Source: Paraspadella gotoi
Lineage: Eukaryota; Animalia; Chaetognatha
Direction: 5' to 3'
Length of the DNA: 64,000 nt
NCBI GenBank assembly: GCA_051294375.1
Contig: CM119267.1
Coordinates: 19,216,773-19,280,772, forward strand
This document shows positions 34,033 to 64,000 of the stretch, piece after piece (within the stretch, counting starts at the first letter, position 1; every line of letters starts with the position of its first letter). Under the pieces are notes generated by a model. That model saw only the letters and a list, made by a program, of their open reading frames with translations, was not told the origin of the DNA and searched no databases. The position numbers were made by a program, and so were the translations under genes.

Positions 34033-34324
34033 TTCCTTCCTGTTAAACAGACAGGCAGCTGTCACGCGAGAAAAACGGAGAGAAGAGACAGTCCCGATCT
34101 CGCTCCCTCTTCCGGTCGTCGATCAGATCTCGTTCGCATGTTCCTCTTCAGCTTCATCGCTTCTCTCTCATTTTTCTCCACGACTCTTTCAAAATCCACT
34201 CATTCTCAAAAGTACGTCAATCCCTCCCGTCAAAACAACCCACTCTTTCCCCCTATCGTCGTAAACGTTGAAACCAAAACAAAACCTCGGCCATGTTCAT
34301 TTTTTATTCTCTCTTCGGTTCGAG

Positions 34325-35846
34325 GTTCCGCGAGGGGTCCTACATCTCCATGCGACCAAAGACGGGACGCCAAGGCTTCAACGGCTCCTACCATCGCGCC
34401 GACTCCGAGTGCGAACCCCAGGCCTCGGGCGTCTCTCCCTCTTCCTCTCTCTCCTCCTTCTCTCCCTCCTCCCTCTCCTCCTCTCCTTCTCCCCGCCGGG
34501 CCTCCTCTGTCACTCCCGCCCGGTCCCGCGCCTCGACACTCCCCGTCACTCCTGTCCAATCCTTGGCCGAATTCGCCACCGGATCCTCTTTCACTCCGCC
34601 GCCGACGCCGCCGACGCCGACGCCGCCGCGCCAGCCTCCATCGCCGCCGATTCTGATTCCGGCGCGCAGCAATGTCGTCGCGGAATCGTTTCCGGCGTCG
34701 ACTCCTTCCCCTAGTCATCTTCGTCGTCAGGAACCGCGCGGAGTGACGCCGTCGTCGCCTTCTTCTTCTTCTTCTTCTTCGTCGTCGTCCTCTGCGGCGA
34801 CGACGCCGGTCTCTGGCGTGTCGCCGCGAGGAACTCCGGAAGAATCCCAGACTTTAGGCGAAACGCCACAGACTGGTTCGTCGCTGACAACGGCGCCGAT
34901 AGAAAAACCTCCTACGCCGCCATCCCCACCGACGCAACTGGCGGTGCCAAAGCCGCCGACGCCTACGACGCCCGCCACTCCGACGGCGCTACCTATTGCG
35001 GTCGCCATTTCGACGCCGGTGTTAACCGCGACGCCGCAATCGCCACCGACGCCACCCACCGCCTCGCTACCGACGACTCCAGCTACCCCTCCGACGCCGA
35101 GAGGTGAGCGCGCCAAAATCGAGCGGACGACGTCGGCGCGGCGTCACTCGATTCCTTCAGTGTCGGCGTCGTCGTCGCAAGCGATGGATGGCGGCGACGG
35201 AAGTCAGCGAGTGACGTCGCGTCCCGTGGAGAACCGCGTTCTGGCGCAAAAGGCGATTCCCGTGCAGATGGCGCATCCGTTCTCTCACGACGGCAAGAAA
35301 CCCGAGCCGCAGTCGGCTCCCCAGCCGGCGCTGCAGCAGCAGCAGCTAGTCAAGAAGCCTGCCGCGGAGGAGGCGCCGCGCCGCGTCGTCGCTCATACGA
35401 AGGTCTCCTTCAACAACAACAAAAAACCGGAGCCTCTGGTTGCGGAGATTCCGCCAATCAGCGTCGTCGTCGTCGCCAAGAATCACCACAACAACGCCGT
35501 CAACAACATCCACAATAATAACAACAACAATCAGGCGGATTTCGTTTCCGCGAAAGACTTGATCGCCGCGGAGGCCGGCTCCAAGCCTTCGTCGATCTTG
35601 GTCGACGACGGCGACTGGACCTCCAAGGAGTCGCCGATCGAGGATCTCGAGGCCGACCTCAAGAAACCCGTCGACGTTCCGGAGGTGAAGACTACGACGA
35701 CGACGAAAACGACGACGAAGAAGACGACAGTGTCAACGTCGAAAAAGTCGATGCGAATTCCCCACCGGAGACAGAAATCCTGCGAGGAGTTGGAATACGA
35801 GGAGAAGGCGTCGGAACTCGTCCAGCACCTCAACGAGAAGGAAAAG
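34325..35846 (+). CDS. Shroom: Shroom-like large exon: S/T/P-rich disordered region ending in the ASD2 N-terminal segment (HRRQKSCEELEYEEKASELVQHLNEKEK)
   Basis: Lies within the 521-aa ORF, donor AAG|GTGAGG. The acceptor (tcttcggttcgag|) is inferred from phase and is less certain. Confidence 0.8.
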
Positions 35847-36288
35847 GTGAGGCAATAATGGAAGGTCCCGCGATCGAATCTAGTCTAGGGCAAGGTTTTT
35901 ATTTGAATATTATATTTTTGTTACTTTCAAAATCAGCCAGCTGATCCGATGCGATCGATAATTTTTACCTTTTATTTCTGATCATTTCACGTCGAAACAT
36001 TAAAAAATCTAATCTTGACAAATGACAAAAGATGACGTAAATTCAATTCTACTACGCAAAACGATTCTCCTTGATTTTCCAAGACCTTTTTTTATACATT
36101 TTTTTTAAAGTGCTAGCTATATTCGATTTAAATGAAAAAAGCAAAGAGAGCAAAAAGTAGAGAAACATTTTGTATTAAAATATGGCAAAGCCTAATCACC
36201 ACCCCACCCCTTCCACCCACACCACCCCTCAAATCACCTCCGCCCCCCTCTCCCCCCCTACCCATAACCCCCAATAAATCCCACACAG

Positions 36289-36642
36289 ATCCTCAAAGTC
36301 GTGATTTCTCCCAACGACCAACGTTCGGTTCACGACTACGTCACCGACTTGTTCCCCGACCTTCCCGCCGACACCTCTACTCCCGAACCGCCCGCCGACG
36401 GCCCGCTTCCCTCCACGGCCACGCCCACTTCCGCGACGCCGCCGACGACGCCGCCTCAGGCGCCGGCGCCGTCTCGCCTCAACGCCAAGCGCGCCAGCAT
36501 CTCGCCGCTCATTCCTCCGCTGATTCATTACACGACGCCGGAAGAGACGCTGAAGAGTCTGGAGAAGATGACCGAGGAACAGCAGGCGTTGATGGAGAGG
36601 CTGGACAACGAGGACGACGACGAGGAGTTGCATCGGCAAAAG
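36289..36642 (+). CDS. Shroom: Shroom ASD2 exon (ILKVVISPNDQRSVHDYVTDLFP...EELHRQK)
   Basis: cacacag| acceptor, AAG|GTGAGG donor, phase 0-0. The DY..dLFP motif is typical of ASD2. Confidence 0.85.
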
Positions 36643-36734
36643 GTGAGGGTCCCGGGGGGAAGAGGAGAGAGAGAGAAGGAAGAAAAAAGGAAGAAAAAAA
36701 AGAGAAAGAGAGTAATAATATGTGAAAGAGAGAG

Positions 36735-36857
<123 letters not shown>

Positions 36858-37477
36858 AGTTGTCCAACTAGTTCCATTTCCCGTCTGCATTGTCGTTCTC
36901 ATCTTGTCGGACCGGACGATCCAGATTCCGTTCCGGTCCCCTCTTGATCGTGTTCTGTAGAATCTATTTCTTGTTCTTTATTATATCTTTCTTTTCTTTT
37001 ATTTCTATATTTTTTTTTATTTCTTTCTCTTTTACTTTCTTTTTTCCTTGTTCTTTCCTTTTCGTTTTTTCTCTCTAACTTTTTCCTTTTTTTTTTAATT
37101 TTCTTTCTTTTTTTTTCCTTTCCTTTTTCTTTAGTGGTAATTTATTTGTTTCTTTTCTGTCGTTTTACTCAAACTTTTTGTTGACATAAAACAAAGTTTA
37201 CTTCACCTTTTTTACCCGTTTTTCGCTTCTTTTTTTTCCTTAATATTTTTTTCTCTTTTCTTTTTTTTTTCTTGTTGACGATCTCTCGCTTTTTCTGGTT
37301 GCCAACATTTTTTCCCTCGAAAACCAGTTTTTTTTTTTTCTATTGTTTTTTTTTTCTCAGTTCCTGTTTTCTTTTCCTCCCCTCGTTTTTCTATTTTTTA
37401 TTTTCATTCCGTTTCTTTCTTTTTTTTCCTCGCTCCTTTTTTCCTCGTCTTAATTCCGGGATTTTCCCTTCCGCCAG

Positions 37478-37588
37478 GAGGAACTGCTGGGCGTCATCAA
37501 CCGCAAACTGGGCTATCTTCGCGCCAGCGAAGAGAGGGTCAACGAGCAAATCAAGGCCAACGACGCTTACCATCAAAACATCGTTAGG
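37478..37588 (+). CDS. Shroom: Shroom ASD2 exon (EELLGVINRKLGYLRASEERVNEQIKANDAYHQNIVR)
   Basis: Aligns with the ASD2 ELI.SI.RKL..L......L...I.AN segment; canonical splice sites. Confidence 0.9.
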
Positions 37589-37958
37589 GTGAGTTGAAAA
37601 AAGGGAATGACAGTTTTCGTCGGTTGTCCGTTCGAGAGAAGGGCCTTTGGAAGAGGAAGCCTCGAAGCATTAAATTTGTTGCGTAATTAAATTCGTCCTT
37701 GGTCAACATTGGTTGTGACGATCTTTATTACGTGATTGGTTCACGCCTTTGCGAAAGATTGGACATTACCATCAGTCTGGTTAGAGTAGGGAAAGGTCCA
37801 TGGTAAGCTGTAAAGTGTATACTGTATACTGTGGCAATGATCGAGATAAGGTTCAAAGCAAGAATGAATGTATTCTTCAATAATAAGTAAAACGAGAGAA
37901 ACGGGAATAAAAGACTCTACGTCTGGTTTCACTAAGTGACCATTCGATATAACAATAC

Positions 37959-38033
<75 letters not shown>

Positions 38034-38232
38034 CTTGGTTGATACGGTTGTAACGGTTGCGTGAACAGTTCATTCGAGTTGCCACAATACTATATAATTG
38101 GGAGATATGTAACGGTTGACTGCCGGACTTTTTGACTTTTTGACCTTTTGAAGGTTTGACTGCTTGACTGCTGACTTTTTTTTTCCCCACAGAATGACTG
38201 GTTGATTAAAACGATTTGCTTTATTGGTCTTT

Positions 38233-38338
38233 CCGTCCCTCCCATGCCGTCCATCCCATGCCGTCCCTCCCATGCCTTCCCTCCCATGCCGTCCTTCCCA
38301 TGCCGTCCCTCCCATGCCTTCCCTCCCATGCCGTCCCC
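38233..38338. repeat. 14-bp minisatellite (ccgtccctcccatg) ~7.5 copies, intronic
   Basis: Directly visible repeat. Confidence 0.95.
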
Positions 38339-38775
38339 ACCGCCGTTATCATTTCTCGGACAAAAAAAAAGAGTTCATATCGTCCTTTCGAGAAATCTTA
38401 TGGATTTTTTTTTTCTTATCTTTCACTCGAGAGCCGAGGAGTCGAGACGAATCAAAGAAGTCGACCGGAAGCGAAAGAGATACCAGGCCACGCCCCATTT
38501 TTAGATTCGGCGCCATTCGACGCCGCTTTATGAATTTATAGACCGATGGTTCGGAATTGGTCATTCCTGTATTATGAGAGGTTTCGTAGCGATGCGCTTA
38601 ATCTGATGATCTTAACCCAAAATTTGGGCCAAATGCGTAATACCGAGCCTGACCAAACAGTCTGGAGTTCGCGGCCCGTTGATGACAGGGCCGAGATCCT
38701 TATTTCACTAGTTTTTCACAGTCTAAGGAGTTCTTTCAACAGTTCTGAGGCCCAACCCCCTCCAACTCCTTCCAG

Positions 38776-39021
38776 GATCTCGAAACGGCCTCCGTGAAAC
38801 CTCAAGAGGTGGAGCGCCTCCGCAACTTCGCCGACGACCTCAGCCGAGTCGTCCACACGATCGTCCTCCTCGCGGGATTCCTGGCCAAAGCCGAGAACGC
38901 CCGACTGAACTCCACCGGAGAGTCGGAGGGGGTGCTGCTGAAGAAACGCTGCGAGACGCTGCGGCGACAGCACGAGGACGCGTTGGAGCTCAAGGCCTCC
39001 ATCGACGGGCGGGGGAAGAAG
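38776..39021 (+). CDS. Shroom: Shroom ASD2 core exon (VKPQEVERLRNFADDLSRVVHTIVLLAGFLAKAENA...QHEDALELKASIDGRGKK)
   Basis: Matches the KP.E..K...FIGDLDKVV.LLLSLSGRLARVENA...QHEDAKELKENLDRR consensus; ccag| acceptor and AAG|GTGAGA donor. Confidence 0.92.
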
Positions 39022-39248
39022 GTGAGAACGGATGTGGTGAAAGGGGGGGAGGGGGTGGGTTTTTTAAATGGTGGTCAATGGGTTTTTGGAAATGAAGGTT
39101 ATGTCTACTCGAAATTTAAACTCGAATATCCTGTTAACGGACGTCACACGGAGCAACTCTATAAGTTACTTTGGAGTAGTCTGCAGTCTGTAGTCTGTCC
39201 GTCTATCTTTTTGTAACTCTTTCTATCTCTCTCTCTCTCTCTCTCCAG

Positions 39249-45445: not shown

Positions 45446-45550
<105 letters not shown>

Positions 45551-46101
45551 AAGTCGATGGGCGAGGCCGTCGATCCACGTCTACAAGAATCGGGTTTTTT
45601 TCTATTTACGACAAAACAGCTCCACAGAACGTCCTCCATACACGAATACGATTAAAGCAAAAAAAGCTCATGGTTGTTTTTTGTTTTGGTTTTTTGTTTT
45701 GGGTTTAAAATGACACTTTTTTAAAAGGGGGTAAAGAGATGGTGTTAGACTCGAGAAGGATAAGAGGACGAAAGTTAGCGCCACCAAAGCAAAAAAAAAA
45801 TTGAAATATTTACGATTTACGGACAAAATGGGAAATGAGAAAAAAAAAGAAAAGAACACGTAAAGATTGAACGGAAACATGTCCGGGTGGGGGAAAACGC
45901 GGTTTTCAAATAGGGGAAACAAAAAATTCAATTGTTTTATAGTTCATGAAAACTTTTGTGGTTATTATTTATTTTTTCAACTTTAACTAAAAAGTGAATA
46001 CGTAATTCTACGGGCGCGATGGGGGAAGATGAAATTATTTTTGTTCTTTTTGTGTCTCCTTATTTTTTGTTGTCTTTTGTTCCTCTGTTGATTCCTTCTC
46101 T

Positions 46102-46188
46102 TCAAACTTGCGTGTGACTGCCACCTAGAGGTTCGTTGCCAAATCCTTCGAACCCCAGCATTTGCGGAGGCGTGCTGTAGCTCTGGTA
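46102..46188 (-). CDS. Gria: AMPA-type iGluR terminal exon (YQSYSTPPQMLGFEGFGNEPLGGSHTQV*)
   Basis: ccctaac branch point plus caacag| acceptor, phase 0. Ends in a class I PDZ ligand T-Q-V then TGA. Confidence 0.8.
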   Translation of the reverse strand, partial: YQSYSTPPQMLGFEGFGNEPLGGSHTQV

Positions 46189-48148
46189 CTGTTGATGGTG
46201 TTAGGGAACATGATGGGGAAAGAAAAAGCGTCTTTAGTTTATCCAAAGATATCAAAGATCCATAATTAATAAATATTTTTTCTCGCTTTGTTGCAGACTA
46301 CAAAATTTAAATATAAAAATTAATTTAACTTTGTTTATATCACGCTTCAAGATATTAAACATAGACTCTAATTCTTAACTCTGCAAATATGAAAAAAATG
46401 ATATAAAATAATAAACATATAAAACGATCGAAATTACGACGTAACTTCGACGGATACTTACAAAAAAATCACATGATCCCGTGAAACCAATGAAAAATTG
46501 AATAAAAATATGAAAAAGTTGAATAAAAATTTTTTCAGCAAATTTACACGACAATGTACAAAGAAACATCACTAAAACTAACATTGTACAACACTAACTG
46601 ACTCAGCAGTGTTCACGGTCATATCAAAGGTTTGAACAATCATCCACTGCTGTTTTCACAGCCAAATATTCAAAAATTCAAGGATTCAAGGAGACGACAA
46701 AAAGTCAAAAAAGAATGGAGATTGAAGAAATGTTTTTTTTTTCAAAATATACATGCAATCATCCAATTCGTCGTACAAACTTAAAATTTTTAAACTGGGT
46801 GAAATAAATAATCTTGGGAAAAGGTGAATAATGAATAATAATAGTATTGTACTGAATAACAAAACTTATTCAATGTAATCAACAAAATTTGGTTCGACGA
46901 TATGCACGATGGCAAACAAGAAAGGTTTCTAATTTTTTATATTTTATTTATTTTAATATTATATTTACATCTGATAACATTCTATATCAGTATATTTTCA
47001 TTTTTGGTTATTATGAACAGTTACTACCAAACGTGCAATAAAACACTAGACCCAACCACTTCTTAAGGTTTTTTTCATTCAAATACCATGTAATCCATAA
47101 TCAGAAAAGTTTTTGAAATTTCATTTTTTATCAAATTGTCTGCATACTATCCGGACATGCAGGCAAGCTGCAGCCTGGTTTTTATCTGTTTTTTTTTGTT
47201 TAACAATATTATGTTTATTTGGAGGAATATGCAAATTGGGATTTTAAAAACAGAGGATTAAGCCGCGGGTTTCAATAGATGAGAAGTAAAAGAATTTTGA
47301 GAAGAGGCAAATTAAGAAAGAAATAATGGAAACTAACACTTAAGGTGTATGAAACAAAGAACATTTCCCGAACTGAGGTTAAATTTTTCCATATTTTATC
47401 GGCAGAAAAACGTTGTTTTTTTTGTTTTGTTTTTTATGAACTGTCTTAAAACTTTCTTGAATACCATTTTAAGCGATCACAACCATAAATCAATAAAGCT
47501 AAATGATTGCATTGAATGATAAATAATCATTGTAACCAAGCTCGCTATGGTACATACTCGAGAAAACATATACATTTATAATGAAAACAGTGCAGATAAA
47601 TCAGTTTTGTAGTTGAGAAATAAAATTCAGAGAGAAAGGCGGAAATTCGTAGTGTTAGCGACCGGTTATCTGACTCATCTATAAAAATTTCTCAAAAGAG
47701 GATCCGTGCAAAATTTCAATTACTAGTAGTATGAATGAAAATCAATGCGGGACCATGAAAGACATCTCTGACTGGCCACTGGCTTCAACGTTAGGTAATC
47801 ATTGTTGAGTCTGTAGATTGCGATCTTTTCAAAGTTTTTGGAACATTGGCATTGCTTGTATTTATATTGGGAATTTCAGCAAATTGATTCTTTTAGAAAT
47901 TTAAATTCATTCTTTGTTTCCCATGACGCATCAATAGGAACCAAACCATAAAGTAAGAGAACATGGCACAGTTCTCAATGTGGATGACTTTTGTGAAAAA
48001 ATTACTAGAATTAATTGATTTATCTGTACTGTTATTTAATGGGTCGTATTGAATTTTTTAAAAAAATGTTTAGAAAATTTTTTTTAGGATAATAAGGAGC
48101 AGAAAAACACATATGAATGGAGCCGGACGAGCAAAACTTTCTTTCTAC

Positions 48149-48250
48149 CGGAAGTCTTGGCGGAGAATTGAGACGCCCGTTTTCTCGTTCGGGCGTGGCA
48201 CTACGCACGGACATGCGCGCCTTCTCCCTCATCGCCGATGAAAACGACGT
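48149..48250 (-). CDS. Gria: iGluR C-tail exon (TSFSSAMREKARMSVRSATPERENGRLNSPPRLP)
   Basis: Resembles the long tail of vertebrate GluA4/GluA2L ([13 protein letters not shown]..ENGRV); ttgtaag| acceptor, CCG|GTAGAA donor. Confidence 0.8.
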
Positions 48251-48512
48251 CTTACAATGAGAAAATTTCAGTAGAAAAAAAAAAAGTTGACAATGGGGTA
48301 AGAGTAACTTTTTTCATGTATATGCATTTATTTTTTTATTATTATTATAAAAATAGGGTCGACTTGGTCGTCCTAATAGCTTCTCATACGTTTATGAATG
48401 TTTTATTTTGAATTACACAGCTGGCAATTGTAAAATCATTAAATTCTAATATTACCCTTACAAAATAAAAAATCATAATTTCTACTATTCCACGAAAATA
48501 AGCTTTGATTAC

Positions 48513-48542
48513 CTCCTTGGGATGAGTCAAATAATCAGCAGT
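48513..48542 (-). CDS. Gria: 30-nt in-frame microexon (TADYLTHPKE) in the iGluR C-tail
   Basis: Long pyrimidine tract plus TTGCAG| acceptor, GAG|GTAATC donor, phase 0-0, no stop. Confidence 0.6.
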
Positions 48543-49009
48543 CTGCAACAAGGGAGCAAAAAGAAAGAAGGAATTTTTACTTAAAGGTTAATTTTAATTA
48601 TTTAAAGCAGTATGATTTAAAAAAATTTCAAAGCTTTGAAAAATAGCTTTGAAAATCTTTTAAGTTGTGAGTGATGTCGGTGTCATGACTAATCTAACAG
48701 GTGTTCTGTGTAAAATTCAAAATTATGGAAGTACTTATCTTCTCTTAATTTTATCAATTTAGAAAGTAAATTAATACTGAAGAAAACGCGACATTATAAT
48801 ACTCAAAGTGAAAAGTTTGTGACCATGATAGAAACAGATGTATGAGGAGGATGAGCAAAATCAAGAAGGAATATATTAATGGATTTACAATAAAAAAAAT
48901 GATTTTAAGATGTTTTAACGCAAAAAAACAGGAACAGAGAACATCTTTAAATAGCCACGAAAGTAAGTATGTGCCACAAGACCAAGTACCGACATATTTC
49001 TTAACTGAC

Positions 49010-49165
49010 CTGCAGTCCACCTCTGACTTTTGACCTCCGGTTCTCGAGGCGAGATTTGTAGCAGAACTCAAGCAGAGCCATCACCATCGCCAGAGTGAGT
49101 CCCCCGATTAAGATGTAAAATACGCCGGCAACGTTACTCAGGGAGAGGGCATTCTGGGAGCCGTC
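49010..49165 (-). CDS. Gria: iGluR M4 exon ([46 protein letters not shown][VRGGLQ])
   Basis: AMPA-receptor signature [17 protein letters not shown]...EFCYKSR. Donors at 49028 (AAA|GTCAGA) and 49010 (CAG|GTCAGT). Confidence 0.95.
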
Positions 49166-50299
49166 CTGAGTTGGGGGCAAAAGTTGGGGAAATTATTAAA
49201 TTTTCTGCTTTTTTTAATTCGAATGTGAGACAATTTAACTTAAAAACAATAAAAGCGTTAAAGAACGTCAAATGCTTAACTAAATATTACCTGTTTTGTT
49301 TGAAGTTTTTTTTTTTATTTTATCACAAAAAAAAAAGAACAAGAAGAAAATGATGAATTAATGATTGCGCTGAATAGATTAAATGGATACGCATGCAACG
49401 AGAAGATAGGATTTCGAGTGCTAAACATTTGTTAGGCTCCTTGCAAGGAATTTTGAACAGAATTTTCTATTTTGGTTGTAACTACGGTTGATTGTTGAAC
49501 ATCAAACTAGTAGAGTATCCTAACAATATGCGTTTCATATTGTTTTTGATAAGGATTAATATTGACTAAGTACTCGTAACCATTAATTCTTTTCCAAAAA
49601 TTAAAGTTTAGGAGATGTTAAAATTTTTTTTTTGTTGGATATCAGACGCGATTTTAATCTAATGATTAATTTCTAATTTCTAAATTTTATGGCACTCAAA
49701 ATATACCAACCTTCTGTAAAATTGGAATTTAAAGTTGAAATTGTCAATAAAATGTTTTGATTGAGTTTTGATAGTTTTAGTATAGCTTGTGGCATGCTGA
49801 TATTCTAAAAATAGCATATTTGAAAATACAAAGGATGTAAATGTCAAGACTTATTAATACTGATGATCACAAGTAAATATCACTAAAAGCAACATACATC
49901 CTTTGTGTATTATTTACAAAGATAGCGACATGCTTGTTAGATTGTGTTAAGAATTCTCAGTGGCATTTTAGTATTGACTAAAGTCTTTTTTTTTAAATTC
50001 TGCAGCCATAACAATGTTGAAGGGTACCAATTTTTATGAATATTCCTTAAATTTATACCAGAGGCAAAATACTGACTCTATTTTGATCCCTTCCTTTGCG
50101 AGAGGGATTTGGCTATTTAATTCCCAAGTTAGTCAGTAAACCAAAAATTAATTCCTACGCAGCAAAAAAAACTACAGGAAATTTCACGTGAGAAAAAATG
50201 GTGCCTTTGAGTGTCATTTCACAAAGTGCCGCCAGATCGAAATTGTGTAGTGCGCCAAAAACGTGCCCGTGACAGTTTCAAAATTGAAAAGTAAAATAC

Positions 50300-50408
50300 C
50301 TGCATTTCCCCTTTGCCGCACTCAGATCGGTCATACCACCACTTTGTCTTTAATTTTGTTAGGTCACCCCCCTCCAGTAATAGGAGTACAGTGTATGACA
50401 AACAGTCC
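50300..50408 (-). CDS. Gria: Flip/flop-position cassette exon E (DCLSYTVLLLLEGGDLTKLKTKWWYDRSECGKGEMQ)
   Basis: ttgttag|G acceptor, CAG|GTATTT donor, 109 nt, phase 2-0, KWWYDRSEC motif. Confidence 0.9.
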
Positions 50409-51230
50409 CTAACAAGAATAGAATGTAGTTTAAATATTTCTCTCATGACACCTTATAGCTGTTTTTCATTTCAGAGTTTGTTTTTTTTTTAAGGATGATT
50501 TGTTGGTCATCATAGATGGAGAAGGTTTAAAAGCGAAAATGGTGCAAGTGCGCTGTGTTTTAAATTTGATAGAAAAAGGGACAGCGTTTATTTCATGCAC
50601 GTAGCAAAATTTGGCTTTAAAAATTAAACGCGCAACAAAAAACTTTTTCGCAAAGAGGTCAATGTTAAAAAAAATTTATGTTGATATCTTAATTTGTTTA
50701 AAACTTCCATTGGAATGTTTCTTATACGAAAACACTGATTAACCTCACATGGCGTTACAGTGACATAAAATGAAGAAGAAAACATTTAAAGCAGACATCA
50801 CAATCCTGAACCATGCAAACCAAAGTTCTGTTTGCCGAAACAAACAAAGTTTGCTTAAACTTAAAAACGCCCAAAGCTATCTCTTTACATGGCTTGAATA
50901 ATGGAATGATTTAACTACTGAGCTGATAATAAAGAATAGTTTAATGAGGTTTTCTCAAACAATTTTCTGTTTTGTTTTTTTAATCCCTGCTTGGATTTCT
51001 TCAAAAATTAATTGTGCTCTTAGTATTTAAAACCATTTTTTCTTAAAAAAAGAAAACCTCACTTTCCAACTGTGAAAGCTCGAAAAACTACTCTTGGGGG
51101 GAATGACATCCAATAAAAATTCCTAATTTTCCAATCAAGATTCACATGGATTAAAAACGAAAAAAAATTTTAGGAGAAAGAGGAAGAGAGCGAGATATAG
51201 ACGAAAAACTATTTAAGCAAAAGCTAGTAC

Positions 51231-51345
51231 CTTGGTACCATCGTTTTGGCCACACTCAGATCTATCATGCCACCATTTCTTCTTCAGATTATGCAATTCA
51301 CCATCTTCTTGCAATGATAATACAGCTAGCGAGATGCAACTTTTG
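51231..51345 (-). CDS. Gria: Flip/flop-position cassette exon D (SCISLAVLSLQEDGELHNLKKKWWHDRSECGQNDGTK)
   Basis: AAG|GTACTA donor. Phase-2 AG acceptors are possible at 51348, 51345 or 51339. Confidence 0.88.
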
Positions 51346-51447
51346 CTGCTGTTGTGTGTAAAAAAATAACGGGTGGGAGCGAAGGAAAAAAAAAAACCGG
51401 GATTTTGTTTTAGACAGCTAAAGTGGATCGGTTCCGTCGGGTCGTAC

Positions 51448-51556
51448 CTTGGCCTTGTCCTGGCCGCACTCGCTGCGGTCATGCCACCACTTTTTCTTGA
51501 GGCGGTGCAGCTGACCGTCCTCTTGAAGCGACAACACACTCAACGAAATGCACGAC
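51448..51556 (-). CDS. Gria: Flip/flop-position cassette exon C (SCISLSVLSLQEDGQLHRLKKKWWHDRSECGQDKAK)
   Basis: AAG|GTACGA donor, intact frame. The acceptor is uncertain: the nearest phase-2 AG gives a start at 51580. Confidence 0.82.
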
Positions 51557-53735
51557 TTCAACTCCTCCTCTCCTCCATTGCTTCCGTTTTAGAGAATCAA
51601 GCATAAAGAATCTGGTTCAATTCCTACTCTATAAGGTAGTATTTTTATCCGCTATTTAATGCCTATCTAACTTAGGATTGTGGTAAAAGCAGACTCATTT
51701 GCATGTATTTCAAAAAGAAAGAGAAAAAATAGGGTGTCATTCTTAAAAATAGACCTAAAGAAATTGAAATTTGTATCAGTCTGTTTATCCAGTAATCATA
51801 ACATAATAAACAACTTATGGAAATATTGGAAAATGTTGGCAAGAGTCTAGTTTTGTCTAGCTTCAGCTTAGCAGGGTAGCAGGCCAAAATCTTATCTTAT
51901 CTTTTGAAAATATCATCAAAGAGAAGCATTTTAATATATTTAATTCAAAGATTCTGCCCTTCAGCTTTTCAAAGGCTCTTTTCACCTGAAGAAGGAAAAA
52001 ATTATCAAGCATGGAAACTCTAAAATGAACAAAAACATTTGACATTAGGGTTGACAAAAAGAAAAAGAATAGAAAATTTAACATACGGTTAGAACAACAA
52101 ATCGTATTTCCTTTCTTTTTATTTAAAAGATTAAATTAAACCAGCTGTTGATTTAAAAAATATCTTTACAACGTAAAATAAAGCAGAGGAAAATAGAAAG
52201 CTACCTCACAAAACACTAGTTTTAAAGTTTGAAAATGAGAGACAAATAAAACCGATTTATTGTTTCAACCAATTTAAAACCAGTATTTTATTTCTTTTAA
52301 AATTATATACTTAAGTCATTAAAATTCTTCCATAAAAAATCATGCGATAATGTTACTAAGTCTCCAAGAGTTTTCATGTTTGATTTGTTCTTTTTGCAAT
52401 AGTCAGGGATAAAGTGGTTTTGTTTTAAAGCCAAAGAATTGAAGACACATTTAAAGAAGTAAGGTAAATGAAAAAAATACTAGAAAAGAACAGCCCAAAA
52501 ACACATTGAAGAAGAGGTTCATGCAAATTTCCTAACATAAATAGGTCCGATATTGTATTTGGTGTTTTTCAACCAAACTGGGCGAATATATTAACTTTCT
52601 TTCCAGTTGGAATTGAGAAAAATATTTTAACGACACTGAAGTAATAATCCAAGCAAATTTTGTCAGGTAACCCAAATGAAACTAACTATTCTAAGTTGAA
52701 AAATTATTAACACTATCTGAAGGAAATACAATGGTCTTAATATTTACACTCTTTTTAAACACTCGAGGTTTTTCAATTTTAGAAGAAGGTACAATAATCA
52801 CGTCACGGACATCTTCTCGAGGTCAGAGGCGTTTTTCACGCAAAAATATTTTTTTCCGAAAGCCAAAAAGTCACTTTGGTGCATATTTAGTATGTTACCT
52901 CTGGTATTCGACACAAAAAGAAACGTATATCATGCTTAAAATATCATGCAATCCATAAACCAATGTTGTATCATGGTTCTACTGATTCGGATAGGAAGGA
53001 GACATGCATTAAGTCTCCAAAGGGAGACAAAGTCTCAATTTTCCGACAATAGCATCAAAAGAAGGAATGCTTCATTGAAGATAGAAACTTGCCAACTGTT
53101 TGAACAAAATAATTCTTTTAAAACAACGAAGGTCACTAAAAAGTTGCTTTAGTTCATTTCATTTCCTTGCTTCTGCTGTCTTTTATCAAGTGGATCCATG
53201 AAATTCAAAAAGTAATATATGTTAGTTGATGTGTTCTAGGAAAATCAAAGTGCTTGGTTAGTCTTTGGTGAAGGAGTGAGTATGGTGTGATGAACTGAAA
53301 CCTCGCTTAGTGGATATTGAAATATGAAATAGTTTTATTTTATTACTTTTGGTTGAAAGTTTAGTAGTAAAAGTGATGAGAATTTGGTTATATTGCAATG
53401 TTTTTTTTCTTATATGATAAAAATTAATACAAGCTTTTCAAGCAGCAATTGAGTTTTGTATTTCGTTCATTAGTAAGCATTTTGTATCATTCGGAATTTT
53501 AGTAATGTAGTATCAATGTTTTTTTTTTCAATCTCTTTATTATTCAGGAGGCAAACAATATCTTTTGTTAGTAAGCATTGCTTAGCCATTCTATTTAAAC
53601 ATTGACATATGAATTTCAAACTTATGAGTCGGAATTTCTCATTCGATTAATGAGATCGTACCAACAAATCTATGGCAAGATCTATGAACGAAATCCTTTT
53701 TTTTTTTCAAAAAAGTTGTTCTGAAGGTTCAATAC

Positions 53736-53850
53736 CTTTGAGCCTTTTTCTCCTTGTCCACACTCAGATCGGTCATACCACCATTTCGTTTTTAGCTTTT
53801 GACAGTCGCCACTTTCTAGCAGTTCTAGAGTAGTTAGAGACAGGCACGTC
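53736..53850 (-). CDS. Gria: Flip/flop-position cassette exon B (TCLSLTTLELLESGDCQKLKTKWWYDRSECGQGEKGSK)
   Basis: tttatag|G acceptor, AAG|GTATTG donor, 115 nt (the same length as vertebrate flip/flop exons), phase 2-0. Confidence 0.92.
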
Positions 53851-54657
53851 CTATAAAGGTGGAATTTAATTTTCACGCACAGTAGAAGCTTAAGCCAGTA
53901 GAATTTTTTTTTTTTGCATAATTTATTTAACTGCCTAAAAATTAGATAATTAGAGAAAAGCGCGCGCTTAACCTCTGCAATTAAAAAAAAATTATTTTCA
54001 TGAAAAGAATTTAAATTTAATGTTGGTAGCATGCAGGTTTCAATTGGTTTCATGACCATGGTGAAAGCGTTATTCTCTTGCGGCTCGTTGCTGGATTAGC
54101 GTTTGCAGTATTTCTCTTTTGGCTGAATGCAGTGGACAGTATGGATAGTACTCTTGGTTTTAAGTTACTCCCCCTATATTCGCTAAATCTTCGAGGAAAT
54201 GACATGAATTTAAAAATTAAAAAAAAAAATTCTTTGATACAGATTTAAAAAAACTAAACAATCACACAAGATGAGATCGCTGATAACGAGAACATTGGTG
54301 AAAAATCAAGACAAAATAGATGAGCGTATTCGAAATTTAAGATAAGAAAAGTAATGTTTGCTAATAAAAATATGCTTAAGTTGCAATCGCTATCTATTTC
54401 TTTTAAAATTTTTTTTTTCGGCTAGAAAAGAGAAAAAGAGTAGCAACCAAAAAAATTACTAATGATTACACTTATTCAATTTCTAAAAAAAAAACAGAAC
54501 CAAAATCGAGTTTTCTAAAAATTTCCCCGAGAAATCGCGGGGGAGAAATGTGGGGGGAATTTGTAGAAAAACCGAAAAAAAGCGAATAAAAAAAAAAAAA
54601 AAAAAAAAAAAACAAACGAACAATCGGGAGTTGAGTTTTTTTGTGATCTTTTCTTAC

Positions 54658-54765
54658 TTTGGCGGATTCCTGTCCGCACTCGCTCCGGTCACGCCACCAC
54701 TTTTTTTAACCTAAAACGCTTCCCCGTCCTCTTGTAGCTTAAGAATCTGGAGTGATATGCAACTC
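54658..54765 (-). CDS. Gria: Flip/flop-position cassette exon A (SCISLQILKLQEDGEAF[R]LK[K]KWWRDRSECGQESAK), frameshifted as assembled
   Basis: ccaag|G acceptor, AAA|GTAAGA donor. 108 nt rather than 3n+1; the disruption lies in the T4/A7 homopolymers (GCGTTTTAGGTTAAAAAAAGTGG). Confidence 0.75.
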
Positions 54766-56212
54766 CTTGGGTTTTTTTTTTTTTTTTGGTTGTGGAAAAA
54801 GTCGGTGGTGCGGGAGAAATCATGGTCAAGGTTTGTGTTAATTAGAATGACACCCATGTTAGAGCCGTTAGTTTTGAAAAAGAGAGAGAGAGAGAGAGAG
54901 ATATGAGAAATTTGAAAAAAAAATTGAGGTTAGGAAAAAAAGATGTATATATATGAATTTTTCGATACAGAGTATGACTAAAAACAATAAATAAAAATGC
55001 AAAAGATTATTTCTATTTTTTTTTGTTCGTTTTTTTCTTTTGAAAACATGCAAGTGAGTTAGTAGCGAGGAAAATTTTGATCGTAAAAGAAATCGGTTTG
55101 TGGAGGCCTAACTCATTGAGCTCGTTAACTGATTCGTCTTCATGATTCTGGTTAGTTAGCGATGACAAGTTAGTAGCGGATGAAAAATTAATGCAAAGAA
55201 ACTAAAATATAATAATGCAAGTTGACAGCATTAAATGTTACGTATAACTCATGTAAAGTAATTTAAAACTTTTAAAACTTAAAACTTTACGCAAACATTC
55301 AATGTTGAGAACTATGCAAAATAAAAAAATATACCCATCATCAGTTTATTTTAAGAACTTTCTAGCTTAAATATTAGTTAATTCAAGAACTTTATATAAA
55401 AATTTTGAGTTTGTTAATAAAAATAAAAAACTATAGAGTTGCACTAACTTTACCAATTATCTATGTATAAAACAAAGGTAAAAAATTAACTTAAAAATTA
55501 AAAAAAAATAATAATAACGCAACCGAAACTCGATCGCGTCCTCATTAATTCTACATCGGCAAAAGTTTAGTCATTCAGAGTCACCAAACGAAAGCAAAAC
55601 TAACGATGAGAAGAGAAAACAAATGAACAGTCCAATTAGTGATTCGTTTTTTGTGTGAATTTGAAAAAAAAAAAAGAATTTTTTTTTGCATCATGCAATT
55701 TCCATCTATGACGCCTCGTGTAGTTCGGCGGAAATAAAAATAACTGTCTCAAATTTTGATTAAAAAAAAAAAACCAAAAGATAAAGAATCCTCGCTCGAA
55801 TAATGCGTTAAAAGTAAAAAAATTAATTAGAAATAGTTTTGTATAGGGCGATAAAAAACGGTTAAAATTATTAAAATTATTATTAAAATTAATATATTTT
55901 TTGGACTTGTGTTTATTTATGTTCGAATGAAATATTTATATTAACCCAACAAATATTTATATTAACCCAACCTTAACGTTATATGGCTGTCTACTTTTTT
56001 AATAAACTATAATTAACTAATTCCAAAAAATTGTCCTTATTAACATTCGTATTCTTAACTTATTTATTTTTTATTTATTATTTATTTATTATTTATATTT
56101 ATTTATTATTTATATTTATTTATTATTTATATTTACTTATATTTATTTTTATTTATTTTTATTTATATTTATTTATTTATTTATTTATTNNNNNNNNNNN
56201 NNNNNNNNNTAT

Positions 56213-56243
<31 letters not shown>

Positions 56244-56275
56244 TTATTAATTACAATATCAGTTTAAGTTTTCTA

Positions 56276-56452
<177 letters not shown>

Positions 56453-56867: not shown

Positions 56868-56999
56868 CGAGAAGAAAGGCATATTTTCCCTTGGACCTCC
56901 GCACACGTTCAACGCCTTCGTCGGTAGACTGTACAAAAACGTTCGGCTGGGCGTGCTCATGAAGGCCCACATGCGTTCGTAGACGGCGATCTTCGACGT
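56868..56999 (-). CDS. Gria: iGluR S2 exon ([42 protein letters not shown]), 1-nt frameshift near 56952
   Basis: The two halves sit in adjacent frames (ORFs 56781..56972 and 56803..57087); canonical splice sites. Confidence 0.9.
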
Positions 57000-57340: not shown

Positions 57341-57444
57341 CTTGAAGAATTCCTTGGTTGAGCCTGAGTCTAAGGATCCGTAACGGATTTCAGTCTGTTT
57401 GGCCAGATCGTCTGCCCCTTCGATGGGCGTCAACATTCTCTCGA
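57341..57444 (-). CDS. Gria: iGluR S2 start exon ([35 protein letters not shown])
   Basis: AMPA-like [20 protein letters not shown]; ctcag| acceptor and AAG|GTGAGA donor. Confidence 0.96.
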
Positions 57445-57599: not shown

Positions 57600-58206
<607 letters not shown>

Positions 58207-59575: not shown

Positions 59576-59939
59576 CGGGGCGAGAGTTCGACCCCTTGTC
59601 GCATGAGAGCCCCAAAGTTAAACCAAAAACTGTTGAAAATAGTAAAGTCGTTGGTGGGTCTGGGCGGGCCCCGTTTGACGGTCTTTTTTTTCTTCCTTCC
59701 TAGGGTTCCGGGGCGATCGTCGGCCCCGGGATCAAATCCTGGGTCGCCCCTACGGACGTCGAAGAGTCGGGGGTTGACCGAGGCGTCGGCGGGTCTCAGG
59801 GGAACGCCACGATAGCGCAACTCTGGTTGAGGTTCCCCGCGGAAACCATAGCTGTATTTGTGCTGCGGAGAATTAGGCGCGGAATGCGTGGCGGCTGTCT
59901 GCGGCGGCGGCGGCGGCAGAGGTAATTCATCGAAACTCG
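59576..59939 (-). CDS. Gria: Alternative M2 pore-loop exon with genomic Arg at the Q/R site (...[41 protein letters not shown])
   Basis: Paralogous to the 62000-62160 exon, open frame, phase-2 donor CCCCG|GTACGT matches the M3 exon. The 5' boundary is uncertain. Confidence 0.8.
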
Positions 59940-61999: not shown

Positions 62000-62160
62000 C
62001 TGGGCGAGATGTCCGTGCCTTGTTGCATGAAGGCTCCCAACGAGAACCAGAAGCTGTTGAAGATTGTGAAGTCGTTGGTGACGCTGGGGCCGTCGATCGT
62101 CTCCTCCACCCGCCATTCGTAGGGAGAGAATCGACTCACCAGAAACAGCACCACCGACAC
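62000..62160 (-). CDS. Gria: iGluR M1-end/M2 exon, Q form ([54 protein letters not shown])
   Basis: AMPA-type M2 signature; ttcag| acceptor, CCCAG|GTCAGT donor. Confidence 0.97.
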
Positions 62161-63160: not shown

Positions 63161-63508
<348 letters not shown>

Positions 63509-64000
63509 TTATTAACGGTTTGGAAAGAGTAATGGTGATCGTCGTACGTCTCGTCGTCTGTCCGTCGATTCAATCCTCCTTTCTTACGATCGTTATGCTA
63601 TTTCTTTTTTCTTTTCTTCCTCTTATTTTCTTTTCGTTCTCCTGCTCATCCGTTCTTTCCGCTTTAAAACAAGGAAAAAAGAAAGGAAACCAATGATGAT
63701 GTTTCCTCTCTCTTCGCTCGGGTATAGGTGCGAATTGAAAAACGAGAACGCCGGGGTCCGAACGGCTGCCGCTCCGAAAACCCAACCCGCCCCTCCCTCT
63801 TTCCCGTCGACCCCCCTCAACCTCCTGCTGCAGCCGCCCCGCTCGCCTCCGCTCCGTTCCGCTGGCTGGTCTCATATAGACAAAAAAGCGTAAATTTTTT
63901 CCCTTTCCATCTTCCATCTTTATTTCGGTTAATCTAATCTGAAACGGGACAAAGAGAATAGGCGGAGTCCGGCTGCGTTTCGCAGCTTCTGGCGTTGGCG

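What the first reader, a model, noticed from the sequence alone, without database searches (positions are those of the whole stretch)
50300..54765. Five tandem flip/flop-like mutually exclusive exons in an invertebrate AMPA-type receptor
Seen: five paralogous ~109-115-nt exons (A 54658-54765, B 53736-53850, C 51448-51556, D 51231-51345, E 50300-50408), each encoding S2 helices J-K (..L.E.G....LK.KWW.DRSECG). They lie between one upstream exon ending GSDL-AG| and one M4 exon. All end in phase 0 and A, B, D and E can start in phase 2, so double inclusion shifts the frame. Established: vertebrate GRIA1-4 have two such exons (flop, flip; 115 nt) with these same boundaries, and they tune desensitization. 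Inference: an expanded five-way kinetic switch, either convergent with vertebrate flip/flop or evidence of a deeper origin.
Basis: partly seen in the sequence, partly recalled or inferred. Interest (0 to 1): 0.92.

Follow-up and report, generated by a model that had tools for sequence, protein, structure and literature searches.

The report
Five-way flip/flop in invertebrate AMPA receptor
An invertebrate gene for a fast glutamate (AMPA-type) receptor carries five diverged copies of the exon that vertebrates have as two ("flip" and "flop"); one spliced contig uses only one of them, and the set likely arose independently of vertebrates and likely tunes how fast the channel desensitizes.

Summary
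The finding is real. Five paralogous helix J-K exons lie on the minus strand between one S2 exon and one M4 exon. There are two corrections. Exon A's frameshift is an assembly error (3 of 3 DNA runs restore the frame), and exon C starts at 51580, not 51556. All 10 exon pairs show protein-level constraint. Unnamed metagenome ORFs with unrelated flanks hold exon-specific orthologues of A, C, D and E (36/36, 34/36, 37/37, 31/36 residues); none was found for B. One spliced contig joins the upstream exon to E alone to M4; use of A-D was not seen. All 26 multi-exon combinations and skipping all five break the frame. The introns are rich in Rbfox and STAR motifs. Trees keep vertebrate flip+flop as their own clade, so this is most likely convergent. 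Ten literature searches found no invertebrate case; three look-ups found no earlier scan note of it on other DNA. The phylum is undetermined and the kinetic function is inferred.

The parts
63184..63379 (-). S1-to-M1 exon (constitutive; several indels in the assembly, probably errors; donor position uncertain). Exons for the ATD and the start of S1 lie beyond the window end.
62000..62160 (-). M1-end plus pore-loop exon, Q form (MQQG, codon CAA); internal phase-0 GT sites at 62140 and 62110
59576..59935 (-). Second pore-loop exon, R form (MRQG, genomic CGA), preceded by about 90 codons of Pro/Arg-rich loop; same phase-2 donor position as the Q exon; start uncertain (59935, 59898 or 59862); splicing not shown
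   Evidence: 19/26 residues identical to the Q copy; pS 0.68, pN 0.15, p=5e-5
57967..58060 (-). M3 exon (SYTANLAAF), constitutive
57341..57444 (-). S2 exon 1, constitutive
56868..56999 (-). S2 exon 2, constitutive (frameshift in the assembly, probably an error; not checked with reads)
56316..56430 (-). S2 exon 3, the common upstream exon; ends in phase 2 with AG of the codon at the vertebrate R/G position
   Evidence: its last 30 nt are the loose end of the X9 contig
54658..54765 (-). Cassette A (109 nt after read-supported correction; subtype A/C/D; Gln at position 754)
   Evidence: orthologue P0130 36/36
53736..53850 (-). Cassette B (115 nt; subtype B/E; Leu at 754)
   Evidence: no B-specific orthologue among 150 listed hits
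51448..51580 (-). Cassette C (133 nt from the upstream acceptor; subtype A/C/D; Gln at 754; 8 extra N-terminal residues)
   Evidence: orthologues P0122-P0124, P0271, P0272 34/36
51231..51345 (-). Cassette D (115 nt, or 118 from the tandem acceptor at 51348; subtype A/C/D; Gln at 754); only 102 nt downstream of C
   Evidence: orthologue P0121 37/37
50300..50408 (-). Cassette E (109 nt; subtype B/E; Leu at 754); the only one seen spliced
   Evidence: contig of X9, both junctions; orthologues P0125, P0127, P0128 31/36
49166..56315 (-). Cassette region with sense-strand enrichment of TGCATG (Rbfox motif, 9 copies) and ACTAAC (STAR/branch-point motif, 8 copies)
49010..49165 (-). M4 exon, the common downstream exon; donor at 49010 used in X9; a second GT donor at 49028 is in frame with the exon at 48250
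48149..48250 (-). Candidate alternative C-terminal exon (similar to vertebrate GluA2 tail), skipped in X9
46102..46188 (-). Last coding exon, ending in HTQV-stop (class I PDZ-type end, T-x-V; motif class recalled)

Best explanation
This AMPA-type receptor gene holds five tandem copies of the helix J-K exon, of which the reading frame permits exactly one per mRNA; they likely arose by duplication within this animal lineage, independently of vertebrate flip/flop, and likely give subunits with different desensitization kinetics. Shown: the five copies, their phases, constraint on all five, conservation of four in other organisms, and one transcript with E alone. Inferred, step by step. (1) An ancestral single exon duplicated into subtypes A/C/D and B/E, then again, giving the order A-B-C-D-E. 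(2) Cell-type splicing factors, likely Rbfox and a STAR protein, choose the exon. (3) Double inclusion or skipping gives an early stop before M4 and would be removed by nonsense-mediated decay, as proposed for vertebrate flip/flop; C-to-D joining may also be blocked sterically. (4) The exons differ at ligand-binding-domain dimer-interface positions that also separate flip from flop (744, 754, 758, 775-779, GluA2 numbering) and at further ones (748-752, 759-761, 768), so the isoforms would differ in desensitization, recovery and assembly.
For: Anatomy. Frame: 26 of 26 multi-exon combinations and skip-all give a frameshift or stop, and each single exon gives an open frame. RNA: a 3219-nt contig of run X9 (depth 12) joins the upstream exon to E and E to M4 over a 1134-nt GT-AG intron. 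Selection: pS 0.53-1.23 against pN 0.15-0.36, pS>pN in 10 of 10 pairs, Fisher p 0.019 to 4e-12. Conservation: orthologues of A 36/36, C 34/36, D 37/37, E 31/36 residues, while translated downstream flanks match at only 1-4 of 15 or 1-3 of 6 positions. Independent origin: Cys745 with Ser747 occurs in all five exons and in 10 of 191 stored J-K segments, all 10 being these orthologues; flip+flop form one clade at 96/96; AU p=0.030 for A/C/D+flip and 0.022 for B/E+flip. Controls: 18 of 18 JGI invertebrate loci have one J-K exon, 5 spanning from the upstream exon to M4; the stored octopus, locust, spider and odonate isoforms do not differ at J-K. Motifs: TGCATG 9 against 1.1 expected (maximum 4 in 300 shuffles), reverse complement 1; ACTAAC 8 against 1.9 (maximum 7). 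Residue 754 controls modulator selectivity and desensitization in GluA2 (PMC12250081, PMC6754398, passages).
Against: Only 1 of 5 exons was seen spliced, in one contig of one low-depth run whose RNA status is the tool's guess. No B-specific orthologue was found. Support for one clade of all five exons was unstable on 31 columns: 82/89, 31/32. AU tests did not reject B/E+flop (p=0.12) and were borderline for A/C/D+flop (p=0.050). The orthologues are separate short ORFs, so their linkage in one cluster is not shown. The two motifs were noticed by eye first and then tested (TGCATG ranks 8th and ACTAAC 10th of 4096 hexamers, behind mostly AT-rich words). The JGI control loci are largely near-identical proteins and so not independent. 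No functional data exist.
Confidence: 0.8

Rival explanations
1. Only E is used; A-D are decayed or silent duplicates.
For: E is the only exon seen in RNA. A is broken in the assembly, A's acceptor is A-rich, and C lacks the canonical acceptor.
Against: A's break is absent from 3 of 3 DNA runs. A and D are identical in protein to orthologues with unrelated flanks, and C is 34/36. C and D are 90% identical in protein but 66% in DNA. The constitutive M3 exon also has an A-rich acceptor. B alone lacks an orthologue and is the best candidate for a young or dispensable copy.
Confidence: 0.06
2. The duplication is ancient: the two subtypes (A/C/D and B/E) descend from the same event as vertebrate flip and flop, and other invertebrates lost one copy.
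For: Same segment and same splice phases as flip/flop (PMC8257547 passages). There are two subtypes. B/E+flop is not rejected (p=0.12).
Against: Either pairing needs one subtype with flip, and both are rejected (p=0.030 and 0.022). The boundaries are shared with single-exon invertebrate genes. Cys745+Ser747 unites the five exons. Published work places flip/flop in the earliest vertebrates (PMC13520880 section 23, PMC4494069 passages). Gene conversion between tandem exons could hide an old origin and was not tested.
Confidence: 0.05
3. The exons are spliced one at a time, but their main effect is on subunit assembly, trafficking or auxiliary-subunit coupling, not on desensitization rate.
For: Vertebrate flip/flop also affects assembly, trafficking and TARP regulation (PMC8257547 passages). 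The cassettes differ most in the tail toward M4 and, for C and D, in extra N-terminal residues.
Against: They also differ at 754, where a single change accelerates GluA2 desensitization nearly 20-fold (PMC6754398 passages), and at 758.
Confidence: 0.08
4. The cluster is an assembly artefact (haplotypes or paralogous genes merged).
For: The assembly has indel errors in several exons and an N gap in the first intron.
Against: One DNA contig of run X1 spans 50481-54574 and so joins D, C and B with their introns; one of X3 spans 50235-53196 and joins E, D and C. The RNA contig joins the flanking exons across the whole cluster. The copies are only 54-69% identical in DNA.
Confidence: 0.01

Closest known systems
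Vertebrate GRIA1-4 flip/flop exons (exons 14/15; exon numbers recalled)
   Same: Same protein segment (end of S2 to the S2-M4 linker), same phase-2 start at the R/G codon and phase-0 end, 3n+1 length, frameshift on double inclusion or skipping; variation at positions 744, 754, 758 and 775-779.
   Different: Five exons, not two; 109-133 nt, not 115; cores 55-90% identical in protein with 15 of 32 positions variable (flip and flop differ at 9 of 39 in the stored lizard GluA2 pair); Gln or Leu at 754 instead of Ser/Asn; separate origin by tree and AU tests.
Invertebrate multi-exon mutually exclusive clusters (Drosophila Dscam; C. elegans unc-32 4a-4c, egl-15 5A/5B, let-2 9/10)
   Same: More than two tandem homologous exons; UGCAUG in flanking introns as in 11 of 29 C. 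elegans clusters; RBFOX and STAR (ASD-2) proteins regulate such clusters (PMC4165533 passages).
   Different: Different gene family; no docking-site/selector pairing above shuffled controls here.
Genomically encoded pore arginine in AMPA receptors (acoel Hofstenia R at Q2; some fishes; Schistocerca GluR1-like)
   Same: An Arg in the pore loop encoded in DNA instead of made by ADAR editing (PMC13520880 sections 16 and 23; P0195/P0286 and several metagenome fragments).
   Different: In those cases Q and R forms are separate genes. Here both pore loops lie as two exons within one gene, which would make Q/R a splicing choice; that step is not shown.

Membership tests
AMPA-type ionotropic glutamate receptor | Domain order S1-M1-pore loop-M3 (SYTANLAAF)-S2-M4 | tested here: met
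AMPA-type ionotropic glutamate receptor | Closest relatives are AMPA subunits rather than kainate, delta or NMDA | tested here: met
   The 60 best PDB matches shown in each are GluA subunits; named hits among the best 120 are GluA/GluR1-like, generic glutamate receptor or hypothetical; 63-79% identity to 21 AMPA-type proteins over up to 307 columns
AMPA-type ionotropic glutamate receptor | Falls inside the AMPA clade in a tree with kainate outgroups | not tested
   No kainate sequence was among the stored proteins used; the tree has AMPA-type rows only
AMPA-type ionotropic glutamate receptor | Amino-terminal domain; glutamate-gated fast current | not testable with these tools
   The 5' part of the gene lies beyond position 64000 and no genome is held
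Mutually exclusive homologous exon cluster | Tandem homologous exons of compatible phase between two common exons | tested here: met
Mutually exclusive homologous exon cluster | Only one exon per transcript | tested here: inconclusive
   One contig has E alone; 26 of 26 combinations are out of frame; no read counts
Mutually exclusive homologous exon cluster | Each member is actually spliced in | tested here: inconclusive
   1 of 5 seen, in one run; indirect support from selection and orthologues
Vertebrate flip/flop pair (as a homologous duplication) | Same segment and boundaries | tested here: met
   also met by single-exon invertebrate genes, so not diagnostic
Vertebrate flip/flop pair (as a homologous duplication) | Two exons of 115 nt with Ser or Asn at 754 | tested here: not met
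   Five exons of 109-133 nt with Gln or Leu at 754
Vertebrate flip/flop pair (as a homologous duplication) | Descent from the same duplication as flip and flop | tested here: not met
   flip+flop clade 96/96; AU p=0.030 and 0.022 against pairing with flip; 31 columns only
Vertebrate flip/flop pair (as a homologous duplication) | R/G editing site two bases before the upstream donor | tested here: inconclusive
   The AG is present; the X9 contig reads the unedited base; no clear exon-intron hairpin in three folded stretches
Vertebrate flip/flop pair (as a homologous duplication) | Isoforms differ in desensitization kinetics | not testable with these tools
   Needs electrophysiology
Dscam-type docking-site/selector control | One intronic element that pairs with a selector beside each exon | tested here: not met
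   Best scores lie within 12 shuffles in 3 of 3 scans; best long duplex -29.0 against -26.3 to -32.8 in 6 shuffles; no comparative DNA was available

The most novel reading that the evidence does not exclude
One invertebrate AMPA receptor gene rebuilds both vertebrate post-transcriptional switches by exon duplication alone: a five-way flip/flop cassette for gating kinetics, and a Q-or-R pore chosen by splicing in a second pore-loop exon with a genomic arginine in place of ADAR editing. Together with alternative tails this would give ten or more channel types from one gene.
Probability: 0.45. Interest if true: 0.92.

Novelty: new variant of a known kind. Interest (0 to 1): 0.78.

Why it matters
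A 2026 survey of AMPA receptor evolution treats flip/flop as a vertebrate innovation and says that alternative splicing of the invertebrate receptors it studied remains to be examined (PMC13520880, section 23). An independent, larger expansion of the very same exon would show that this short segment is a repeated evolutionary target for tuning synaptic kinetics. It supplies five natural variants of the dimer interface on one constant background, which can be tested directly by expression and fast perfusion. If the second pore exon is used, calcium permeability would be set by splicing rather than by editing or gene duplication, a route that my searches did not find described.

Tried and rejected
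No genome is held for the window, so the 5' part of the gene and paralogues could not be examined. The run search listed 9 holders, none on record as RNA; X9 was a guess that proved to hold a spliced contig. Absence of A-D junctions in that one run is no evidence of silence. Reads were laid only on 45500-55400, so the upstream S2 exons, the N gap and both pore exons are unchecked by reads. Word-index protein searches with cassette B and with the R exon found nothing; both are weak tests. The ESM Atlas search with the R exon gave Lig_chan clusters only, with a low recognition value. The metagenome scan returned 18 loci from other invertebrates and none from this lineage. Docking-site scans and inverted-repeat listing gave nothing beyond shuffles; the one eye-catching pair (55023-55059 with 51693-51729, -26 kcal/mol) is within the null range. 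No R/G-type hairpin was evident. A second M1-end exon for the R copy was sought and not found. Cassette C starting at 51556 was rejected because there is no AG. The phylum could not be fixed: the gene lies outside the arthropod (100/99), annelid (95/97) and vertebrate (100/100) clades and is unresolved beside the priapulid and octopus rows. Structure prediction was not run, because the ligand-binding domain is split over many exons. Bowie 2026 is not held and Chen 2006 was seen only as cited by others.
Full report
Observation. The minus strand of 46.1-63.4 kb carries the 3' half of an ionotropic glutamate receptor gene: an S1-M1 exon, a pore-loop exon, M3, three S2 exons, then M4 and tail exons. 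Between the last constitutive S2 exon (56430-56316) and M4 (49165-49010) the helix J-K exon occurs five times. A six-frame motif scan of the whole window gives five copies, and low-stringency tblastn with priapulid, annelid, insect and lizard receptors gives no sixth. A 20-N gap in the first intron was not covered by reads, so five is a minimum. All five end in phase 0 at GT. A, B, D and E have a phase-2 AG at the stated starts; C does not, and its nearest phase-2 AG is at 51580.

Assembly errors. In the assembly A is 108 nt and hits a stop. Contigs from 3 of 3 DNA runs laid (X1 and X3 of study P1, X5 of study P2) show two bases added near 54700 and one removed at 54713, which restores a 109-nt open exon. 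The best DNA holders may be the source of the assembly, but they disagree with it here, which is the point. No difference was listed inside B, C, D or E, though that table left 3 indel rows unshown. Single DNA contigs join D-C-B (X1, 50481-54574) and E-D-C (X3, 50235-53196), so the array is physical. Frameshifts in two constitutive exons look like the same kind of error but were not checked.

Exclusivity. Lengths are 109, 115, 133, 115 or 118, and 109 nt, all 3n+1. Each alone gives an open frame into M4; all 26 combinations of two to five, and skipping all, give a frameshift or stop. The same holds for human flip/flop, where double inclusion is thought to be cleared by nonsense-mediated decay (PMC8257547, passages). 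Run X9, which the tool only guessed to be RNA, holds a 3219-nt contig at depth 12 that joins E to M4 over a 1134-nt GT-AG intron and M4 to the last exon. Its loose end beyond E is the last 30 nt of the upstream exon. So one transcript with E alone, skipping A-D, is shown. A-D junctions were not seen in this single low-depth run; that says nothing against them.

Selection and conservation. Over the 31-codon core, nucleotide identity is 54-69% and protein identity 55-90%. pS exceeds pN in 10 of 10 pairs (0.53-1.23 against 0.15-0.36; Fisher p 0.019 to 4e-12). A profile of B-E searched against 1.84 billion proteins gave 529 hits at E<=0.001, 150 listed. Eight of the top ten are unnamed ENA ORFs and two are bird GluA4. 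The eight, with two cluster members, are exon-specific orthologues: A 36/36 (P0130, matching the X1-type correction), C 34/36 (five ORFs), D 37/37 (P0121), E 31/36 (three ORFs). Their translated downstream flanks match the window at only 1-4 of 15 or 1-3 of 6 positions, so they likely come from other species. Four of the five C orthologues extend upstream with an R-N-G-x-(E/K)-L-K lead-in like the window's C from 51580, which supports that acceptor. No B-specific orthologue was found. These ORFs are separate records, so their linkage is not shown.

Origin. On 31 columns and 35 rows, A/C/D (87/81) and B/E (97/92) are two subtypes, and flip with flop form one group (96/96). A shared ancient duplication would need one subtype with flip and the other with flop. 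AU tests reject A/C/D+flip (p=0.030) and B/E+flip (p=0.022), so both pairings fail, although A/C/D+flop (0.050) and B/E+flop (0.12) are not clearly rejected alone. Support for all five as one group was unstable (82/89, 31/32). A character argues for it: Cys745 with Ser747 is in all five exons and in 10 of 191 stored J-K segments, all 10 being the orthologues. The boundaries shared with vertebrates are ancestral: 18 of 18 JGI invertebrate loci have one J-K hit, 5 span from the upstream exon to M4, and those read show the same phases; many are near-identical proteins and count as few independent cases. Stored isoform sets of octopus, locust, spiders and odonates do not differ at J-K. The constitutive part places the gene outside the arthropod, annelid and vertebrate clades; the phylum is not determined.

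Likely mechanism. Using GluA2 numbering (alignment, 21-residue signal peptide recalled), the five exons vary at 15 of 32 positions from 743 to 774 and in the tail. These include 744, 754, 758 and 775-779, where flip and flop differ. Position 754 is Gln in A, C and D and Leu in B and E. In GluA2 it is Ser in flip and Asn in flop, sets modulator selectivity (PMC12250081, passages), and S754D weakens the dimer interface and speeds desensitization nearly 20-fold (PMC6754398, passages). A kinetic role is therefore likely but untested. For exon choice, the cassette region has TGCATG 9 times (shuffles: mean 1.1, maximum 4 of 300) against 1 for its reverse complement, and ACTAAC 8 times (mean 1.9, maximum 7); both are far rarer in the first 40 kb of the window. 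I noticed these by eye before testing. RBFOX and the STAR protein ASD-2 regulate mutually exclusive exons in C. elegans (PMC4165533, passages); that ACTAAC is the STAR element is recalled. The C-D intron is 102 nt with its only CTAA about 37 nt from C's donor, which could block C-to-D joining (inference). Docking-site scans gave nothing beyond shuffles.

The pore loop is also duplicated. The copy at 62160-62000 has MQQG (CAA); a second ending at 59576 has MRQG (CGA), the same phase-2 donor, 19 of 26 residues identical, pS 0.68 against pN 0.15 (p=5e-5), and about 90 upstream codons of open, GC-rich loop. It lacks the end of M1, so it is not a plain swap. It fits in frame either as a 360-nt cassette after the Q exon (acceptor 59935), which would put the R loop next to M3, or through GT sites inside the Q exon (62140, 62110). 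No RNA was laid there and no orthologue was found, so its use is unproven; I put it at about 0.55. An Arg at this site removes rectification and calcium dependence in rat, hemichordate, brachiopod and acoel receptors, and genomic pore arginines are known as separate genes (PMC13520880, sections 16 and 23).

Comparison with what is known. It works like vertebrate flip/flop but is not a member of that duplication. PMC13520880 (outline, sections 13, 16, 23 and passages read) states that flip and flop arose in the earliest vertebrates and that splicing in the invertebrate receptors studied remains to be examined. PMC4494069 and PMC5740500 (passages) treat flip/flop as vertebrate. Chen 2006 was seen only as cited; Bowie 2026 is not held. 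Ten full-text searches found no invertebrate J-K or pore-loop exon cluster. Eight were aimed at prior art: flip/flop/mutually exclusive exons/invertebrate/AMPA receptor; flip and flop/vertebrate lineage/exon duplication/protostome (23); flip flop/alternative splicing/invertebrate/AMPA/evolution (42); flop/glutamate receptor/mutually exclusive/chaetognath, the last term a guess from no call (44); amphioxus/Drosophila (68); genomically encoded arginine/alternative exon (69); Aplysia/mollusc (81); duplicated exons/pore loop (82, whose one hit concerns Dscam). Searches were for motifs and residue 754. Most results were seen as listings only, no supplements were opened, and subscription journals are not covered, so a prior mention in a genome annotation cannot be excluded. 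Earlier notes of this scan gave no look-alike and one unrelated note on a vertebrate intron.

Verdict. A real, conserved, five-member exon cluster at the flip/flop position of an invertebrate AMPA-type receptor, most likely mutually exclusive and convergent with vertebrates: a new variant of a known kind. Confidence 0.8; interest 0.78, limited by one transcript, an unknown phylum and no physiology, and raised by the possible splice-made Q/R switch in the same gene.

Noticed in passing
window 59576-59935 (-), with 62000-62160 (-): Duplicated pore-loop exon: Q form and a genomically encoded R form with a long Pro/Arg-rich loop; possible splice-based Q/R switch.
   Followed up: partly
window 49028, 49010, 48149-48250, about 48512-48540, 46102-46188 (-): Alternative C-terminal splicing: two donors in the M4 exon, a GluA2-like tail exon and a possible short exon, both skipped in X9; the last exon ends in HTQV-stop.
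   Followed up: partly
cassettes A-E, second residue: An invariant cysteine at position 745, at the start of helix J, in all five exons and their orthologues; B has a further cysteine at 759. Partner or role unknown.
   Followed up: no
window 34272-39216 (+): Shroom-family gene convergent with the receptor gene; ASD2 domain at 38749-39213, E=1.5e-15.
   Followed up: partly
window 63184-63379 and 56868-56999 (-): Indels that break constitutive exons, probably assembly errors like the one in A.
   Followed up: no
window 58061-58080 and 54766-54785: A-rich acceptor regions without a pyrimidine tract before the constitutive M3 exon and before cassette A.
   Followed up: no
P0053 (Priapulus caudatus model): The predicted protein has two tandem M4-like segments, which may be duplicated alternative M4 exons fused by the gene model.
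   Followed up: no
L003, L008, L016; P0195, P0283, P0286, P0287 (Schistocerca); several of P0044-P0094: Other invertebrate AMPA-type genes with a genomic MRQG pore as their only pore loop seen; the locust ones also have a long M1-M2 loop.
   Followed up: no
window 56190-56209: 20-N gap inside an AT-rich microsatellite in the intron before cassette A; could hide more sequence.
   Followed up: no
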